In this document: in pieces, positions 25,477-30,754 of the stretch
Layout: each line of letters begins with the position of its first letter
Numbering within the stretch: position 1 is the first letter of the stretch
DNA from: an uncultured Acidobacteriaceae bacterium
GTDB lineage: Bacteria; Acidobacteriota; Terriglobia; Terriglobales; Acidobacteriaceae
Assembly: GCA_963786075.1 (NCBI GenBank)
Contig: CAWAYA010000006.1
Span: forward strand, 36,075-100,074
Direction of reading: 5' to 3'
DNA: 64,000 nt
The notes under the pieces: generated by a model
The model's database searches: none
Seen by the model: only the letters and a program-made list of their open reading frames with translations
Told to the model about the DNA's origin: nothing
Position numbers and translations under genes: made by a program

Positions 25477-26016
25477 ATGGCTTCCGTTGCCAGCACGTAC
25501 TCCCGGGCATTCGCAGATGTCGTCCTGAGCAAGCATCTCGACGCCGATCGTTCGATTGCGGAATTACGCACGATCGCCAGCCTGCTCGACGAAAGTTCGG
25601 TGCTGCGGCGAGTGTGGGAGAATCCAGCAATTCCCGCTGACCAGAAGCGGCGTGTGCTGGACGTAATCGCCAAGCGTGACGGCATTTCAACCCAGGTGAG
25701 GAATCTGGTCGCGGTGCTGATCGATCATCGGAGAACGCATTTTCTGGATCCCATCATCTTGCAGCTGGCGAAGGAACTCGATGCGCGCCTGGGATTCGCC
25801 GAGGCCGAGATCACCAGCGCTCGCGCTCTTGGCGATGCGGAGAAGCGCGAGTTCGAGGCTCAGGTTGGCAAGTTGACCGGCAAAAAAGTCCGGGCTCAAT
25901 ACGGGCAGGACGCTTCTCTTCTGGGAGGCGCGGTGCTCCGCATCGGCAGTACGATCTACGACGGTTCGGTGAAGGGGCAACTGGAGAGGATTCGGGAAGA
26001 AATAAGCGGCACTTAG
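25477..26016 (+). CDS. atpH: F0F1 ATP synthase subunit delta
   Basis: YSRAFADVV.. N-terminus, ..GGAVLRIGSTIYDGSVKGQLERI C-terminal OSCP signature, and position between b and alpha. Confidence 0.85.
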   Translation: MASVASTYSRAFADVVLSKHLDADRSIAELRTIASLLDESSVLRRVWENPAIPADQKRRVLDVIAKRDGISTQVRNLVAVLIDHRRTHFLDPIILQLAKELDARLGFAEAEITSARALGDAEKREFEAQVGKLTGKKVRAQYGQDASLLGGAVLRIGSTIYDGSVKGQLERIREEISGT

Positions 26017-26070
26017 CAATTGGCAGTCAGCAATTGGACAATTGCTAACTGCCAAGTGCTAAATGCTGAC
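26015..26070 (+). repeat. 4 x 14-nt array forming a long imperfect hairpin (atpH-atpA spacer)
   Basis: AGCAATTGGCAGTC / AGCAATTGGACAAT / TGCTAACTGCCAAG / TGCTAAATGCTGAC. Arm 26015-26037 and the reverse complement of arm 26038-26060 agree at 20 of 23 positions. The array starts inside the atpH TAG. Confidence 0.85.
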
Positions 26071-26101
26071 GACAGCGAATTGAGGGCTGGAACCTGATTC
26101 T

Positions 26102-27634
26102 ATGGCACAAATCAAGGCAGACGAAATTACGAAGTTAATCCGCGAGCAGATTGAGAACTACGAATCGAAGATCTCCGTGGACGAAACTGGCACGGTCATC
26201 ACGCTCGGCGATGGTATCGCGCGCGTGTATGGGCTCGACAAGGTGATGGCCGGCGAACTTCTTACCTTCCCGCACGGCGTGGCCGGCATCGCGATGAACC
26301 TGGAAGAAGACCAGGTGGGCGTGGTGCTGCTCGGCGAATATACCGAGATCAAAGAAGGCGATGAAGTGAAGCGCACGGGCCGCATCATGAGTGTGCCCGT
26401 AGGCGATGCCATGATCGGGCGTGTGGTCGATTCGCTCGGCCGTCCCATCGACGACAAGGGCCCTATCGCGACGGATAAGTTCATCGCCCTGGAACGCCTG
26501 GCACCCGGCGTCATCGACCGGCAACCCGTGCGCGAGCCCATGGCGACCGGACTGAAGGCCATCGACAGCATGATCCCGATTGGCCGCGGCCAGCGCGAGT
26601 TGATCATCGGCGACCGGCAGACCGGAAAGACGGCGGTCGCGCTCGATACCATCATCAACAGCAAGGGCAACAACCTGGTTTGCATTTATAACGCGATCGG
26701 GCAGAAGCGGTCGTCGATTGCGCAGGTGGTGAAGATTCTCGAAGATTATGGCGCGATGGAGTACACCATCGTCGTAGCGGCGTCGGCCTCGGAACCCGCG
26801 CCCATGCAGTACATTTCGCCGTACGCGGCAACGGCCATCGGCGAATATTTCCGCGATACCAAGCGGCACGCGCTGGTGATTTACGACGATCTCTCGAAGC
26901 ACGCGGCGTCGTATCGTGAGATTTCGTTGCTGTTGCGGCGGCCGCCGGGGCGCGAGGCGTATCCCGGCGACGTGTTCTACCTTCACTCGCGCCTGCTGGA
27001 GCGCTCCGCCAAGTTAAGCGACAAGAACGGCGGCGGATCGCTGACGGCTCTGCCCATCATTGAGACGCAAGCCGGCGACGTTTCCGCCTACATTCCGACC
27101 AACGTGATTTCGATCACCGACGGTCAGATCTATCTCGAAACTGACCTGTTCAACCAGGGCGTGCGCCCTGCCGTAAACGTTGGTTTATCGGTAAGCCGCG
27201 TCGGCGGCAGCGCACAGATCAAGGCCATGCGGCAAGTGGCCGGAACCTTGAAGCTCGAACTTGCGCAATACCGCGAACTGGCAGCGTTTGCGCAGTTCGG
27301 CAGCGATCTCGATAAAGCCACGCAAGCGCAGCTCAATCGTGGGCAGCGGCTGGTCGAACTGTTGAAGCAGAACCAGTTCTCTCCGCTGCCCTTCTCCAAA
27401 CAGATTCTGATCATCTTCGCCGGCACGGGAGGATTTCTCGACGACCTCCCGGTGAATCAGGTCCGCGATTTCGAGAAGGAACTGTACGAGTACGTTGACG
27501 CAACGCAAGCTGGCCTGTTGCGCACCATCATGGAGAAAAAGATTCTCGATGACGGATTGAAGGCCCAGTTGACCGATGTGATCAAGCAGGCAAAGCAGCA
27601 GTTCGTGGCGAGCAGGGAAGCAGTAGCGAAGTAG
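26102..27634 (+). CDS. atpA: F0F1 ATP synthase subunit alpha
   Basis: Full-length alpha: GDRQTGKT Walker A, ..[39 protein letters not shown].., ..ITDGQI. Confidence 0.97.
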
Positions 27635-27663
27635 CGCCGAGTGCCTGGTAGCACGCGCAGAGC

Positions 27664-27704
27664 AAGACTCGAGACGCGGGACTCTGGGCTCGGGACTCGA
27701 ACCA
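27664..27704 (+). repeat. about 3 x 14-nt degenerate array abutting the atpG ATG
   Basis: AAGACTCGAGACG / CGGGACTCTGGGCT / CGGGACTCGAACCA, immediately followed by ATG 27705. Confidence 0.75.
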
Positions 27705-28784: not shown

Positions 28785-28824
28785 CAAGTACCCGTTACCC
28801 AGTACCGAGACGAGTCAAAAACAT

Positions 28825-30267
28825 ATGGCAGAAAACGTAGGACACGTGGTTCAAATTGCAGGGCCGGCGGTAGACGTTCAGTTTCCCGAAGGCAAGTTGC
28901 CGCCTATCTATGAGGCGGTGCGAGTCGTGAGTGACGGCTTCACTGTGCCCAGCCCGGTCAACGTAATTCTCGAGGTTCAGCAGCACCTGGGCGAAGGCCG
29001 CGTGCGCTGTATCGCGATGGAAGCAACTGAAGGCATGGTGCGCGGTATGAAAGCCATCGACCAGGGCGGACCGATTTCCGTGCCCGTTGGACGCGGTACG
29101 CTGGGGCGCGTGATGAACGTAATCGGCGAGCCTGTCGACCAGCTGGGGCCGATCGAGTACAAGGAAAGAATGCCGATTCACCGCCTCGCGCCGGCGTTCG
29201 ACGAGCAGGCCACGACGGCGGAAATGTTTGAGACCGGAGTGAAGGTCATCGATCTCATTCAGCCCTTCTTGAAGGGCGGCAAGATCGGCTTGTTTGGCGG
29301 CGCGGGCGTGGGCAAGACCGTCGTCATCATGGAACTGATCAACAACGTCGCCAAGCAACACGGAGGCTACTCGGTGTTCGCAGGCGTTGGAGAGCGCACG
29401 CGCGAAGGCAACGATCTTTGGCTGGAGATGACGGAATCCGGTGTGATCAAACCGGGCGATCCGGCACACTCGAAGGCCGCGCTGATTTACGGGCAAATGA
29501 CGGAGCCACCCGGAGCGCGGTTGCGCGTCGCGCTCACCGGACTAACCGTCGCCGAATATTTCCGCGACGCCGAGGGAGCGGACACGCTGCTCTTCATCGA
29601 CAATATTTTCCGCTTCACGCAGGCAGGGTCGGAAGTGTCAGCTCTGCTCGGCCGCATGCCCAGCGCTGTAGGTTACCAGCCGAATCTGGCGACGGAAATG
29701 GGCGAACTGCAGGAGCGCATTACGTCAACCAAGAAAGGTTCGGTCACGTCGGTGCAGGCAATTTACGTGCCTGCCGATGACTTGACCGATCCCGCGCCAG
29801 CCACGACGTTTGCTCACCTCGACGCGACCACTGTGCTCTCCCGCGCTTTGACTGAAATTGGAATTTATCCTGCCGTCGATCCGCTGGCTTCGACGTCGCG
29901 CATTCTCGATGCCCGCATCGTTGGCCAGGAGCACTATGACGTAGCCCAGTCCGTGAAAAAGACGCTGCAGACTTACAAGGATCTGCAAGACATCATCGCG
30001 ATTCTCGGCATCGATGAACTCAGCGAAGATCAAAAGCTCACCGTGGCGCGGGCGAGAAAGATTCAACGCTTCCTATCGCAGCCCTTCCACGTGGCCGAGC
30101 AGTTCACTGGCGCAGCGGGACGTTACGTCAAGATTGCCGATACTGTGAAAGGCTTCAAGGCGATAGTCGAAGGCAAGTACGACGACATTCCCGAGCAGGC
30201 GTTTTATATGAAGGGCCCGATTGAAGAAGTGCTGGAAGCGGCGGAGAAGATGAAAGCGGCAGCGTAA
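28825..30267 (+). CDS. atpD: F0F1 ATP synthase subunit beta
   Basis: ATG 28825 ([20 protein letters not shown]). GGAGVGKT Walker A. ..[32 protein letters not shown]... The track start 28720 overlaps atpG and is rejected. Confidence 0.97.
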
Positions 30268-30310
30268 AAAAGTCAGTGGCCGGTTGTCGGTGTTCAGTCG
30301 AAGAGCTGAC

Positions 30311-30340
30311 TGAGAACTGAGAACTGAGAACTGAGAACTG
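30311..30340 (+). repeat. heptamer array (TGAGAAC) x4 + TG abutting the atpC ATG
   Basis: TGAGAAC at 30311, 30318, 30325 and 30332, then TG. The last TGA (30339-30341) overlaps ATG 30341 as TGATG. Confidence 0.95.
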
Positions 30341-30754
30341 ATGTCTGATACTTTCCAACTCGAGATCGTCACGCCGGAAAAGAAAGTCGTCGACACTACT
30401 GCGGCGGAAGTTCAGATTCCCGGCAAGAACGGATATCTGGGCATCCTGCCGGGCCATGCGCCGCTCATTACCGAACTGGCTGTGGGTGAAGTCACGTTCC
30501 GCGCTGCGGGTGACGAGCAGCGCCTTGCGGTCGCGTGGGGATTCGCAGAAGTTTTGCCCGACAAAGTGACGATTCTGGCCGAGACCGCAGAGCGCCCCGC
30601 CGAGATCGACGTGGAACGCGCGCGCAAAGCCAAAGCTCGCGCCGAGGGACGGCTGTCGAGTGGCGATCCGAATGTTGACGTCGAGAGGTCTCTGAACGCG
30701 TTGCACAGGGCAGAGGCACGGCTGGAAGTGGCCGAAGGGAAAAGCCACTTCTAA
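30341..30754 (+). CDS. atpC: F0F1 ATP synthase subunit epsilon
   Basis: FQLEIVTPEKKVVD..VQIPGKNGYLGILPGHAPLIT.L..G is the typical epsilon beta-sandwich. C-terminal helical hairpin. Last gene of the block. Confidence 0.9.
   Translation: MSDTFQLEIVTPEKKVVDTTAAEVQIPGKNGYLGILPGHAPLITELAVGEVTFRAAGDEQRLAVAWGFAEVLPDKVTILAETAERPAEIDVERARKAKARAEGRLSSGDPNVDVERSLNALHRAEARLEVAEGKSHF

What the first reader, a model, noticed from the sequence alone, without database searches (positions are those of the whole stretch)
26015..30343. Three consecutive intercistronic spacers of the ATP synthase operon each carry a different repeat array
The atpH-atpA spacer has 4 x 14 nt in which units 3-4 approximate the reverse complement of units 1-2. 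Arms 26015-26037 and 26038-26060 pair at 20/23 positions, and the hairpin begins inside the atpH stop codon. In the atpA-atpG spacer a ~14-nt array ends at the base before ATG 27705. In the atpD-atpC spacer (TGAGAAC)x4+TG ends in TGATG overlapping ATG 30341, which places TGA in all three frames just before the start. In most bacteria these spacers hold little more than a Shine-Dalgarno sequence. Here recognisable SD sequences are weak or absent for atpG and atpC. The subunits are needed at 3:3:1:1:1 stoichiometry, so such elements are plausible tuners of segmental mRNA stability, of ribosome termination-reinitiation or of translation rate. That interpretation is inference only.
Basis: partly seen in the sequence, partly recalled or inferred. 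Interest (0 to 1): 0.6.

Follow-up and report, generated by a model that had tools for sequence, protein, structure and literature searches.

The report
Heptamer-repeat hairpins fill ATP-synthase operon gaps
The repeats between the ATP synthase genes of this peat-soil acidobacterium are real, but they are local copies of a genome-wide class of hairpin-forming 7-base repeat elements that fill the same four gene junctions in about 80 related species, and they look like DNA-level passengers, not purpose-built regulators of the operon.

Summary
All four F1 junctions (atpH-A, A-G, G-D, D-C) carry period-7/14 arrays. Two fold into stop-to-start hairpins (z -5.6 and -3.45); two are decayed.

The arrays are not specific to the operon. 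This Candidatus Sulfotelmatobacter genome has about 100 intergenic period-7 arrays. They are also dense in the ribosomal-protein cluster and present in the rRNA spacer.

In about 80 related genomes the same four atp junctions are occupied in about 90% of cases, by 27-31 different heptamer classes per junction. The atpF-atpH gap stays at 0-4 nt, and a sister family has tight junctions throughout.

The same unit families flank PF05635 ("23S rRNA IVS protein") genes: all 3 in this genome and about 27 of 32 loci sampled across the genus.

Arm mismatches show no sense-strand RNA selection. G.U versus A.C is 229:201 in atp spacers and 72:74 genome-wide, against 22:0 in tRNA stems. Some relatives have lost arrays.

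Best reading: these are STRR/IVS-like palindromic elements renewed at the DNA level. Any effect on atp mRNA, probably RNase III cleavage, is likely a by-product.

The scan has reported this element class before in other genomes.

The parts
25474..25476 (+). atpF-atpH junction, 3 nt, no repeat. This is the contrast case within the same operon.
   Evidence: The gap is 0-3 nt in 17 of 17 genus genomes, and 4 nt or less in all but 4 of about 66 family loci.
25477..26016 (+). atpH (delta/OSCP subunit). Its last codons and its TAG stop lie inside the hairpin stem.
   Evidence: Pfam PF00213, E 8.8e-39; fold.
26007..26068 (+). Hairpin built from 2 + 2 copies of a 14-nt unit (GGCAGTCAGCAATT and its complement). 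Arms are 26009-26036 and 26039-26066.
   Evidence: 28-nt arms, 89% complementary; dG -41.9, z -5.6; the antisense strand folds even better (z -7.1). The same 14-nt family sits at atpG-atpD in G017 and G010.
26102..27634 (+). atpA (alpha subunit)
   Evidence: Pfam PF00006, PF00306 and PF02874.
27635..27663 (+). Decayed 5' arm of the atpA-atpG element, a remnant of CCGAGTA units.
   Evidence: Comparison with L052 and L053 (= G007), where TAACACCGAGTACCGAGTACCGAG... is intact.
27665..27699 (+). 3'-arm array of five heptamers of GGACTCG type, ending 5 nt before the atpG ATG.
   Evidence: The spacer fold is not significant (z +0.98).
27705..28784 (+). atpG (gamma subunit)
   Evidence: Pfam PF00231, E 4.9e-92.
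28787..28807 (+). Solo 5'-arm-type array AGTACCC GTTACCC AGTACCG with no partner arm.
   Evidence: It is perfect (AGTACCC x2-3) in L052, L091 and L056. Fold z -0.09. Most other species have a 90-165 nt TAGCTTC/GAAGCTA hairpin here.
28825..30267 (+). atpD (beta subunit)
   Evidence: Pfam PF00006 and PF02874.
30273..30334 (+). Imperfect hairpin. The 5' arm is a decayed CAGTGNN array (30273-30299); the 3' arm lies within the GAGAACT array (30308-30334).
   Evidence: 27-nt arms, 70% complementary; dG -31.4, z -3.45 in sense, helped by G.U pairs; antisense z -0.6.
30309..30341 (+). Perfect array (ACTGAGA) x 4.7, ending in TGATG, which overlaps the atpC start. TGA falls in all three frames.
   Evidence: TRF, 100% matches. 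L052 has 5 units instead of 4. The same unit flanks a PF05635 gene at C24:237192-237235.
30341..30754 (+). atpC (epsilon subunit)
   Evidence: Pfam PF02823 and PF00401.

Best explanation
The arrays are the arms, intact or decaying, of heptamer-armed palindromic elements. Each element has a run of 7-nt units just after a stop codon, a loop, and the inverse-complement run just before the next start codon.

This is a genome-wide and family-wide class of intergenic repeat in Candidatus Sulfotelmatobacter. It is of the same kind as the cyanobacterial STRR, Xanthomonas and Geobacter heptamer repeats. It has the same design as the cassettes that carry PF05635 ('23S rRNA intervening-sequence protein') genes.

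Shown here:
- The architecture, and how widely it is distributed.
- Occupancy of the same four atp junctions in about 80 genomes, with many different unit sequences.
- The same unit families around PF05635 genes.
- No sense-strand RNA selection on the pairing.

Inferred:
- The elements entered once-tight junctions in the ancestor of this family.
- They are kept palindromic and repetitive by DNA-level processes: unit slippage, arm-to-arm template switching or conversion, and replacement or re-insertion. Selection for an ATP-synthase-specific regulatory RNA is not what keeps them so.
- When transcribed, the intact ones form 20-30 bp stems running from the stop codon to a few nt before the start codon. 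As with IVS stems, RNase III probably cuts them. Any effect on atp expression is therefore a tolerated by-product.
For: - Genome-wide excess of period 7/14, with period 8/16 as well, confined to intergenic DNA. The listed units share CAGT/ACTG-type cores and come as inverted pairs.
- Other essential transcripts carry them too: 9 of 31 ribosomal-protein junctions, against 8.2% of all co-directional junctions, and the rRNA spacer between tRNA-Ile and tRNA-Ala.
- Across the family, 56-68% of spacers at each of the four junctions have a strong lag-7 window and 0% at lags 5, 6 and 8-11. Median fold z is -3.6 to -4.5, and the outer helix covers 81-89% of the spacer.
- 62/69, 72/80, 75/80 and 64/69 spacers have a dominant heptamer class, with 27-31 classes per junction and many classes shared between junctions.
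- Turnover is fast. G000 and G007 are 90.9% identical in coding sequence, yet their atpH-A and atpD-C elements are unrelated. Unit copy number changes between G000 and L052. The 14-mer family sits at a different junction in other species.
- DNA-level signature: G.U versus A.C mismatches are 229:201 (p = 0.19) in atp spacers and 72:74 in 62 other co-directional hairpins, against 22:0 in tRNA stems. The atpH-A hairpin folds better on the antisense strand.
- PF05635 link: all 3 genes in G000 are bracketed by inverted arrays, one by CAGTTCT x11 and GAGAACT x6. PF05635 is present in 26 of 26 genus genomes. About 27 of 32 sampled loci are bracketed by the unit families seen in atp spacers.
- In the sister family, arrays were seen only in the genome with 4 PF05635 copies.
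Against: - Occupancy of exactly these four junctions in about 90% of genomes, while atpF-atpH stays at 0-4 nt, could reflect selection for the elements rather than mere tolerance.
- There is a polarity: the 3' arm is richer in purines in 156 of 212 hairpins. Helices start at the stop codon and end 3-12 nt before the start. An RNA-level role would predict both.
- The atpD-C hairpin of G000 folds only in the sense strand.
- No PF05635 gene was found inside any atp spacer.
- No transposition, target-site duplication or empty-versus-filled pair with exact borders was shown, so mobility is inferred from distribution only.
- The genomes compared are relatives and not independent samples.
Confidence: 0.6

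Rival explanations
1. Selected intercistronic RNA elements. On this view the stop-to-start hairpins are kept because they act on the polycistronic mRNA in one of three ways. They could be RNase III processing sites that cut the operon into separately stable cistrons with short leaders that lack a Shine-Dalgarno. They could be 3' stabilisers. Or they could be coupling devices, opened by the terminating ribosome to expose the next start.
For: - The elements persist at four junctions in about 80 genomes although their sequence is replaced.
- The stem base includes the stop codon, and the stem ends 3-12 nt before the start.
- The 3' arm is purine-rich and is followed by a short U-rich linker before the ATG.
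- None of the four genes has a conserved Shine-Dalgarno, whereas the next gene downstream has GGAGG 5 nt before its ATG.
- RNase III is encoded in the genome.
- Published precedent: RNase III cuts the 28-bp stem of the Coxiella IVS (PMC4990558).
- The elements are enriched in highly expressed operons.
Against: - G.U is about equal to A.C in the arms, unlike tRNA stems.
- Two of the four G000 spacers do not fold.
- Natural losses exist: atpH-A is 15-19 nt in G010, L092 and L107; atpD-C is 7-24 nt in L085, L094 and L120; atpA-G is 11 nt in L111; atpG-D is 14 nt in L113.
- The same elements occur in convergent and divergent gaps.
- No Rfam family matches.
Confidence: 0.22
2. Arrays of binding sites for a protein that reads 7-nt units on DNA or RNA. 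One candidate is the pentameric PF05635 protein; another is a nucleoid or transcription factor. The hairpin potential would then be secondary.
For: - The spacing is strictly 7 nt, with conserved cores (CAGT, AGCT) and 3 variable positions.
- The arrays are associated with PF05635 genes.
- Solo arrays without a partner arm exist, for example 28787-28807 and C24:282582-282693.
Against: - There are 27-31 unrelated unit classes per junction, which argues against one sequence-specific reader.
- Arms are usually complementary and fold far better than shuffles.
- No binding data exist, and PF05635 has no demonstrated nucleic-acid specificity in the papers read.
Confidence: 0.1
3. Ordinary microsatellites. 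On this view polymerase slippage, known to favour 7-nt units, creates arrays independently in any slack intergenic DNA, and the inverted arrangement is incidental.
For: - Unit copy number differs between close relatives (4 versus 5 GAGAACT).
- Heptamers are the commonest long simple repeats in many bacteria, and slippage was proposed as the cause (Mrazek 2007, as summarised in PMC4679880; PMC4692102).
Against: - Slippage alone does not make the inverse-complement array on the other side of a loop. It explains neither the fixed 5'-pyrimidine / 3'-purine polarity nor the recurrence of the same families around PF05635 genes.
- Three sister-family samples have none in 40-100 kb.
Confidence: 0.06

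Closest known systems
STRR and other heptanucleotide intergenic repeats: Calothrix/Nostoc STRR, Xanthomonas GGGAATC, Beggiatoaceae TAACTGA, Geobacter heptanucleotide palindromes
   Same: - Tandem 7-nt units, with several unit families per genome, that are almost only intergenic.
- They sit close to the end of the upstream ORF or directly before start codons.
- Length and sequence vary between close relatives at conserved positions.
- One Nostoc example lies inside an operon, between pecE and pecF.

Sources: PMC4692102, PMC4679880, PMC2700814.
   Different: - Here the arrays are mostly paired as inverse complements that fill the whole stop-to-start gap.
- They occupy the same four junctions of one essential operon across about 80 species.
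- They share unit families with the flanks of PF05635 genes. I found none of these three points in the papers read.
- The G-quadruplex idea proposed for Xanthomonas does not apply, because the units here are not G-runs.
Intervening sequences (IVS) of 23S rRNA that carry an S23p/PF05635 ORF (Coxiella burnetii, Leptospira)
   Same: - Terminal inverted repeats form a stem of about 28 bp around a PF05635 gene.
- Tandem heptameric repeats of variable copy number lie inside the Coxiella element.
- The authors regard it as selfish.
[quoted passage not shown]

Source: PMC4990558. In this genome PF05635 genes sit between the same kind of arms.
   Different: - The atp elements carry no gene.
- They lie in mRNA spacers, not in 23S rRNA, and this genome's 23S has no IVS.
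- Cleavage by RNase III is untested here.
REP/BIME extragenic palindromes of enterobacteria and pseudomonads
   Same: - Short imperfect palindromes in many copies.
- They are found between genes of operons and after stop codons.
- From my own knowledge, not tested here: they are known to stabilise upstream mRNA segments and are tolerated as selfish DNA.
   Different: - REPs have one conserved sequence per family and depend on a RAYT (Y1) transposase. Here the arms are tandem 7-mers of dozens of sequences.
- The only Y1_Tnp match in the genome is a partial frame with an internal stop.
Intercistronic RNase III sites of phage T7 early mRNA
   Same: Hairpins sit exactly between cistrons of a polycistronic RNA. 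This is a functional analogy for what the intact atp hairpins may do (my own knowledge).
   Different: T7 sites are conserved, single, bulged hairpins under RNA-level selection. Here there is no sequence conservation and no G.U over A.C bias.

Membership tests
Heptanucleotide intergenic repeats (STRR-like / long simple sequence repeats) | Tandem head-to-tail units of 7 nt, in at least 3 copies | tested here: met
   TRF finds 4.7 perfect copies at 30309-30341. Five units lie at 27665-27699 and three at 28787-28807, and the atpH-A element has 14-nt (2 x 7) units.
Heptanucleotide intergenic repeats (STRR-like / long simple sequence repeats) | Many loci per genome, confined to intergenic DNA, with several unit sequences | tested here: met
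   At lag 7 there are 104 intergenic and 20 coding windows. At lag 14 there are 64 and 1. Control lags give 8-13.
IVS-type cassette (PF05635 gene between inverted arms) | Terminal inverted repeats that form a long stem | tested here: met
   atpH-A has 28-nt arms, 89% complementary, z -5.6. atpD-C has 27-nt arms, 70% complementary, z -3.45. The feature is not met for atpA-G and atpG-D in this genome (z +1.0 and -0.1), but it is met in most relatives.
IVS-type cassette (PF05635 gene between inverted arms) | Carries an S23p/PF05635 ORF in the loop | tested here: not met
   No such ORF occurs in any atp spacer of this genome or of 97 relatives. Long spacers hold other ORFs or frameshifted atp genes. 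The atp elements are at most gene-less relatives of the cassette.
IVS-type cassette (PF05635 gene between inverted arms) | The same arm families flank bona fide PF05635 genes in the same genomes | tested here: met
   True of 3 of 3 genes in G000 and of about 27 of 32 loci in 26 genus genomes. The units are CAGTTCT, TAGCTTC, GGCTTCC, CGTTGGT, CAGTGGN and GAGTACC.
IVS-type cassette (PF05635 gene between inverted arms) | Excised from the transcript by RNase III | not testable with these tools
   An RNase III gene is present.
IVS-type cassette (PF05635 gene between inverted arms) | Located in 23S rRNA helices 9, 25 or 45 | tested here: not met
   The 23S gene aligns end to end with the Rfam model and has no insert. 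Hairpins do lie in the 16S-23S spacer.
REP/BIME with RAYT transposase | One conserved palindrome sequence per family and a cognate Y1 (RAYT) transposase gene | tested here: not met
   There are dozens of unit sequences. The single PF01797 match is partial and contains a TGA stop.
Intrinsic (Rho-independent) terminator | G+C-rich stem followed by a U tract | tested here: not met
   The scan of 23800-31200 predicts no terminator-like site at any atp junction. Some relatives have GGTTTT after the 3' arm.
Curated cis-regulatory or structured RNA family | Match to an Rfam model, with pairing kept by RNA-type substitutions (G.U much more frequent than A.C) | tested here: not met
   Rfam gives only a tRNA in the window. 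G.U versus A.C is 229:201 and 72:74, against 22:0 in tRNA stems.

The most novel reading that the evidence does not exclude
The heptamer-armed hairpins act as 'intervening sequences of messenger RNA'. RNase III would cut them out of the atp, ribosomal-protein and rRNA-spacer transcripts. Operons in these acidobacteria would then be expressed as processed, nearly leaderless cistrons without Shine-Dalgarno sequences. The elements themselves would be non-autonomous partners of the PF05635 four-helix-bundle protein, which would at last give that protein family and the decades-old heptamer repeats a mechanism.
Probability: 0.15. Interest if true: 0.8.

Novelty: new variant of a known kind. Interest (0 to 1): 0.5.

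Why it matters
Heptamer repeats have been recorded since 1990 in cyanobacteria, Xanthomonas, Geobacter and Beggiatoaceae. The papers read here give them no accepted function.

The ATP synthase operon of Sulfotelmatobacter offers an unusually clean natural experiment. The genes are essential and their order is fixed. There are four always-occupied junctions and one never-occupied junction. About 80 species carry dozens of interchangeable unit sequences. The same arms also surround PF05635 genes.

This makes two questions directly testable:
- Are long perfect hairpins between cistrons processed, and how are the downstream genes translated without a Shine-Dalgarno?
- Does the PF05635 protein have anything to do with the repeats?

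For genome annotation it matters too. In these genomes, junction repeats are not operon-specific regulators.

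Tried and rejected
- Rfam on the window: only a tRNA.
- Terminator scan: nothing at the junctions, so I rejected the attenuator or terminator reading for this genome.
- I looked for a PF05635 gene in the unusually long atp spacers of relatives (240-590 nt). 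None was found. The long spacers hold unrelated small ORFs (L083, L109, L096), frameshifted atp genes (L079, L114), or nested REP-like elements.
- I asked whether arrays downstream of the 16S gene on C29 were IVSs in 23S rRNA. They are not. They lie in the 1.5-kb 16S-23S spacer, and the 23S gene is uninterrupted.
- The REP/RAYT explanation was rejected: the only Y1 transposase match is broken, and there are too many unit sequences.
- Genome-wide Shine-Dalgarno statistics rest on my crude ORF-based gene calls, and start sites are unreliable. I used only the atp starts anchored by protein alignment.
- My first folding run timed out. I repeated it with fewer shuffles. Both Python runs used mononucleotide shuffles. 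The four G000 spacers were also folded with dinucleotide-preserving shuffles.
- Gene calls are home-made, because no gene finder was available. Counts of 'intergenic' versus 'coding' are therefore approximate.

Full report
**What is in the sequence.**

The window holds an F-type ATP synthase operon: atpF'-F-H-A-G-D-C, at 24202-30754 on the + strand. Pfam confirmed every gene.

- atpH-atpA. Two 14-mers (26008-26035) are followed by their inverse complements (26039-26066). The arms are 28 nt long and 89% complementary. As RNA, 26007-26068 folds at -41.9 kcal/mol, z -5.6, with 0 of 200 dinucleotide-preserving shuffles as good. The stem includes the TAG stop of atpH.
- atpA-atpG. Five heptamers of GGACTCG type lie at 27665-27699.
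- atpD-atpC. There are 4.7 perfect copies of ACTGAGA at 30309-30341, ending in TGATG. TGA falls in all three frames, as it must for any 7-nt unit that contains a stop triplet.

Only two of the four spacers fold better than shuffled sequence. These are atpH-A (z -5.6) and atpD-C (z -3.45). atpA-G (z +0.98) and atpG-D (z -0.09) do not. No junction looks like an intrinsic terminator, and Rfam finds nothing there.

**The arrays are not specific to the operon.**

The genome is 4.3 Mb, 58% G+C, in 34 contigs. Intergenic DNA shows self-similarity peaks at lags 7, 14, 21 and 28.
- Windows with at least 75% self-match number 104 intergenic and 20 coding at lag 7.
- At lag 14 they number 64 and 1. At lags 8 and 16 they number 52 and 40 intergenic.
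- At the control lags 5, 10, 11 and 13 there are only 8-13.

The units fall into a few families (CAGTTCT, CAGTGGC, CAGTACC, CAGCTNT and others). Where two arrays share a gap, the first is the pyrimidine-rich form and the second is its inverse complement.

A perfect palindrome reads the same on both strands. This polarity is therefore a property of the element and not of gene direction.

The elements are dense in other essential transcripts.
- 9 of 31 junctions of the ribosomal-protein cluster (contig C12, 8.5-30 kb) have period-7 arrays, against 8.2% of all co-directional junctions. Most other junctions in that cluster carry other palindromic repeats.
- One heptamer hairpin lies between tRNA-Ile and tRNA-Ala in the rRNA spacer.

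Earlier reports of this scan describe the same element class in other phyla.

**The same junctions across relatives.**

Record titles of the closest loci name the organism as Candidatus Sulfotelmatobacter, an acidobacterium of class Terriglobia.

I extracted the atp spacers from 17 genomes of the genus. I also took 80 species-level loci with atpG 68-95% identical to the window's.

Spacer lengths:
- The atpF-atpH gap is 0-4 nt in all but four loci, and atpF'-atpF is often the overlap TGATG.
- The atpH-A, A-G, G-D and D-C gaps have median lengths of 103, 84, 122 and 88 nt.

Repeat content and folding:
- At each of these four junctions, 56-68% of spacers contain a 21-nt window with at least 76% self-match at lag 7. 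None does at lags 5, 6 or 8-11.
- Median fold z-scores are -3.6 to -4.5.
- The outermost helix spans 81-89% of the spacer. It starts 0-6 nt from the first base of the stop codon and ends a median of 3-12 nt before the start codon.
- About 90% of spacers (62/69, 72/80, 75/80 and 64/69) have one dominant heptamer class. There are 27-31 different classes per junction, and many classes recur at more than one junction.

In the sister family, the A-G, G-D and D-C gaps are mostly 2-30 nt and hold no arrays. So the architecture and the position are conserved, and the sequence is not.

**How the elements change.**

G000 and its close relative G007 are 90.9% identical over atpA, atpG and atpD. Their atpH-A and atpD-C elements nevertheless use unrelated units, while their A-G and G-D elements are clearly homologous.

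The closest spacer set (L052) differs from G000 in three ways:
- one GAGAACT unit more or less;
- a few point changes;
- in the atpH-A stem, a C.A mismatch in G000 that is a U.G pair in L052.

The G000 A-G spacer is a decayed version of the CCGAGTA / GACTCGG hairpin that is intact in L052 and L053.

In the G000 D-C spacer, the old NNCACTG 3' arm has been replaced by an expanded GAGAACT array. That array no longer matches the decaying CAGTGNN 5' arm.

The 14-nt family of the G000 atpH-A hairpin sits at atpG-atpD in G017 and G010.

Other palindromes occupy the same gaps.
- TAGAGACGT..ACGTCTCTA fills all three junctions examined in G018 and at least one in G013.
- A GATCCTTCG...CTCAGGATGAC element is nested in the loops of several hairpins.

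Arrays can also be lost:
- atpH-A is 15-19 nt in G010, L092 and L107.
- atpA-G is 11 nt in L111.
- atpG-D is 14 nt in L113.
- atpD-C is 7-24 nt in L120, L094 and L085.

Away from the operon, orthologous G000/G007 junctions without arrays keep their length, while junctions with arrays change their occupant.

**Link to PF05635 genes.**

I followed a lead from earlier scan notes and searched for PF05635 (23S_rRNA_IVP).

G000 has three copies, and each is bracketed by inverted heptamer arrays.
- The first has CAGTTCT x11 and GAGAACT x6, the unit of the atpD-C array.
- The second has GAGTACC-type and GGTACTC-type arrays.
- The third has CAGTGGN arrays.

All 26 sampled genomes of the genus have the gene, in 1-10 copies. 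In 32 loci inspected, about 27 show inverted arrays of 7-nt units (8-nt in two loci) on the two sides. The families are those found in atp spacers: TAGCTTC/GAAGCTA, CAGTTCT/AGAACTG, GGCTTCC/GGAAGCC, CGTTGGT/ACCAACG, CAGTGGN and GAGTACC.

In the sister family the sample is small and not phylogenetically controlled.
- The genome with four PF05635 copies has arrays (6 in 200 kb).
- Samples from three genomes with 0-1 copies show none in 40-100 kb.

No atp spacer holds a PF05635 gene. The atp elements are therefore at most gene-less relatives of these cassettes.

**RNA-level or DNA-level?**

Suppose the pairing were kept by selection on the transcript. Transitions that leave G.U should then be tolerated far more often than those that leave A.C.

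I aligned each spacer to its own reverse complement with all mismatches scored alike.
- The 190 atp hairpins show 229 G.U-type and 201 A.C-type mismatches (p = 0.19) and 466 transversion mismatches.
- 62 other co-directional hairpins of G000 show 72 and 74.
- Acceptor and T stems of 40 tRNAs of the same genome show 22 and 0.

The atpH-A hairpin folds slightly better on the antisense strand (z -7.1).

I therefore infer that the palindromic, repetitive state is renewed at the DNA level and not held by purifying selection on the sense RNA. The likely processes are unit slippage, copying between arms, and replacement.

Three observations pull the other way, and I have given that rival 0.22.
- The four junctions are occupied almost everywhere.
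- The 3' arm is richer in purines in 156 of 212 hairpins.
- The G000 atpD-C hairpin folds only in the sense strand.

**What the elements probably do to the operon (inference).**

The four downstream genes have no conserved Shine-Dalgarno. The 30 nt before their starts carry only 4-12 bits of information across 63-72 genomes, mostly a T at -1 and a weak GAG before atpA. By contrast, the 16S 3' end is canonical, and the gene after atpC has GGAGG 5 nt before its ATG.

Intact elements would put the stop codon at the base of a 20-30 bp stem that ends just before the next start. RNase III typically cuts stems of that length. The genome encodes the enzyme. In Coxiella it cuts the 28-bp stem of the PF05635-bearing IVS in mid-stem (PMC4990558).

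Cleavage would separate the cistrons and leave short, unstructured leaders. A terminating ribosome would also melt the base of the stem.

**Comparison with what is known.**

Heptanucleotide repeats are a recognised but unexplained class.
- Mrazek and colleagues found them to be the commonest long simple repeats (summarised in PMC4679880).
- They are described in Xanthomonas and Nostoc. There they lie close to the upstream ORF, at conserved positions but with variable sequence, and once inside the pec operon (PMC4692102).
- TAACTGA repeats lie before start codons in Beggiatoaceae.
- Palindromic sets of five heptamers occur in Geobacter (PMC2700814).
- The Coxiella IVS paper notes tandem heptamers of variable number inside the element.

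Three points were absent from the papers I found:
- the paired-arm, stop-to-start design;
- its persistence at four junctions of one essential operon over about 80 species, with free exchange of unit sequence;
- the sharing of arm families with PF05635 flanks.

Within this scan the element class has been reported before in other genomes. I therefore rate this finding as a new variant of a known kind, of moderate interest.

Noticed in passing
G000 contig C12:8500-30000 (outside the window): Almost every junction of the ribosomal-protein gene cluster longer than about 30 nt holds a palindromic repeat, from at least four families. These are heptamer-armed hairpins, GGTTTCAA octamer-armed hairpins, GGGCGATTGA-type hairpins, and the REP-like elements CAGATTCCTC...CGGAATGACA and GATCCTTCG...CTCAGGATGAC.
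   Followed up: partly
L034 (G000:C29:38500-48500), 1968-3516: The 16S-23S spacer is about 1.5 kb long. It holds a heptamer hairpin exactly between tRNA-Ile and tRNA-Ala (2647-2731), a GAGAACT x4 array (3029-3056) and an octamer-armed hairpin (3320-3400). The 23S gene itself has no intervening sequence.
   Followed up: partly
window 57756-57929, and the loops of atp spacers in G004, G009, G013, L078, L083 and L125: A second repeat, GTCATCCTGAG..(hairpin)..CGAAGGATC, recurs nested inside or beside heptamer hairpins. At window 57756-57929, G007 has a 14-mer-armed hairpin in its place.
   Followed up: no
L008 (G018) and L013 (G013), atp spacers: A different palindrome, TAGAGACGTnGCTTGCnACGTCTCTA, occupies all three atp junctions examined in G018 and the atpG-atpD junction of G013, in place of heptamer arrays.
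   Followed up: no
G000 contig C24:267275-268359: A stretch of about 1.1 kb made almost only of A and T sits in a 58% G+C genome, inside a gap of about 4.5 kb without called genes. It may be an assembly artefact or foreign DNA.
   Followed up: no
window 42921-43060: An octamer-armed palindrome (GGTTTCAA / TTGAAACC units) lies in the 142-nt gap at 42918-43061; an earlier scan note places it next to serS. It has the same design as the heptamer elements but a period of 8. Period 8/16 arrays are the second enriched class genome-wide.
   Followed up: partly
L083 (atpA-atpG), L109 and L096 (atpD-atpC): In three relatives an unrelated small ORF (167, 129 and 96 aa) sits inside an atp junction. In L083 it lies next to a remaining heptamer arm.
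   Followed up: no
window 23870-24201: The operon in this window starts with atpF', after a 332-nt non-coding stretch that has a promoter-like TTGACA-17-TAGACT at 24132-24160. Genes for the a and c subunits are not adjacent.
   Followed up: no
G000 contig C24:242949-243203: The only IS200/RAYT-type (PF01797) match in the genome is partial and interrupted by a TGA.
   Followed up: no
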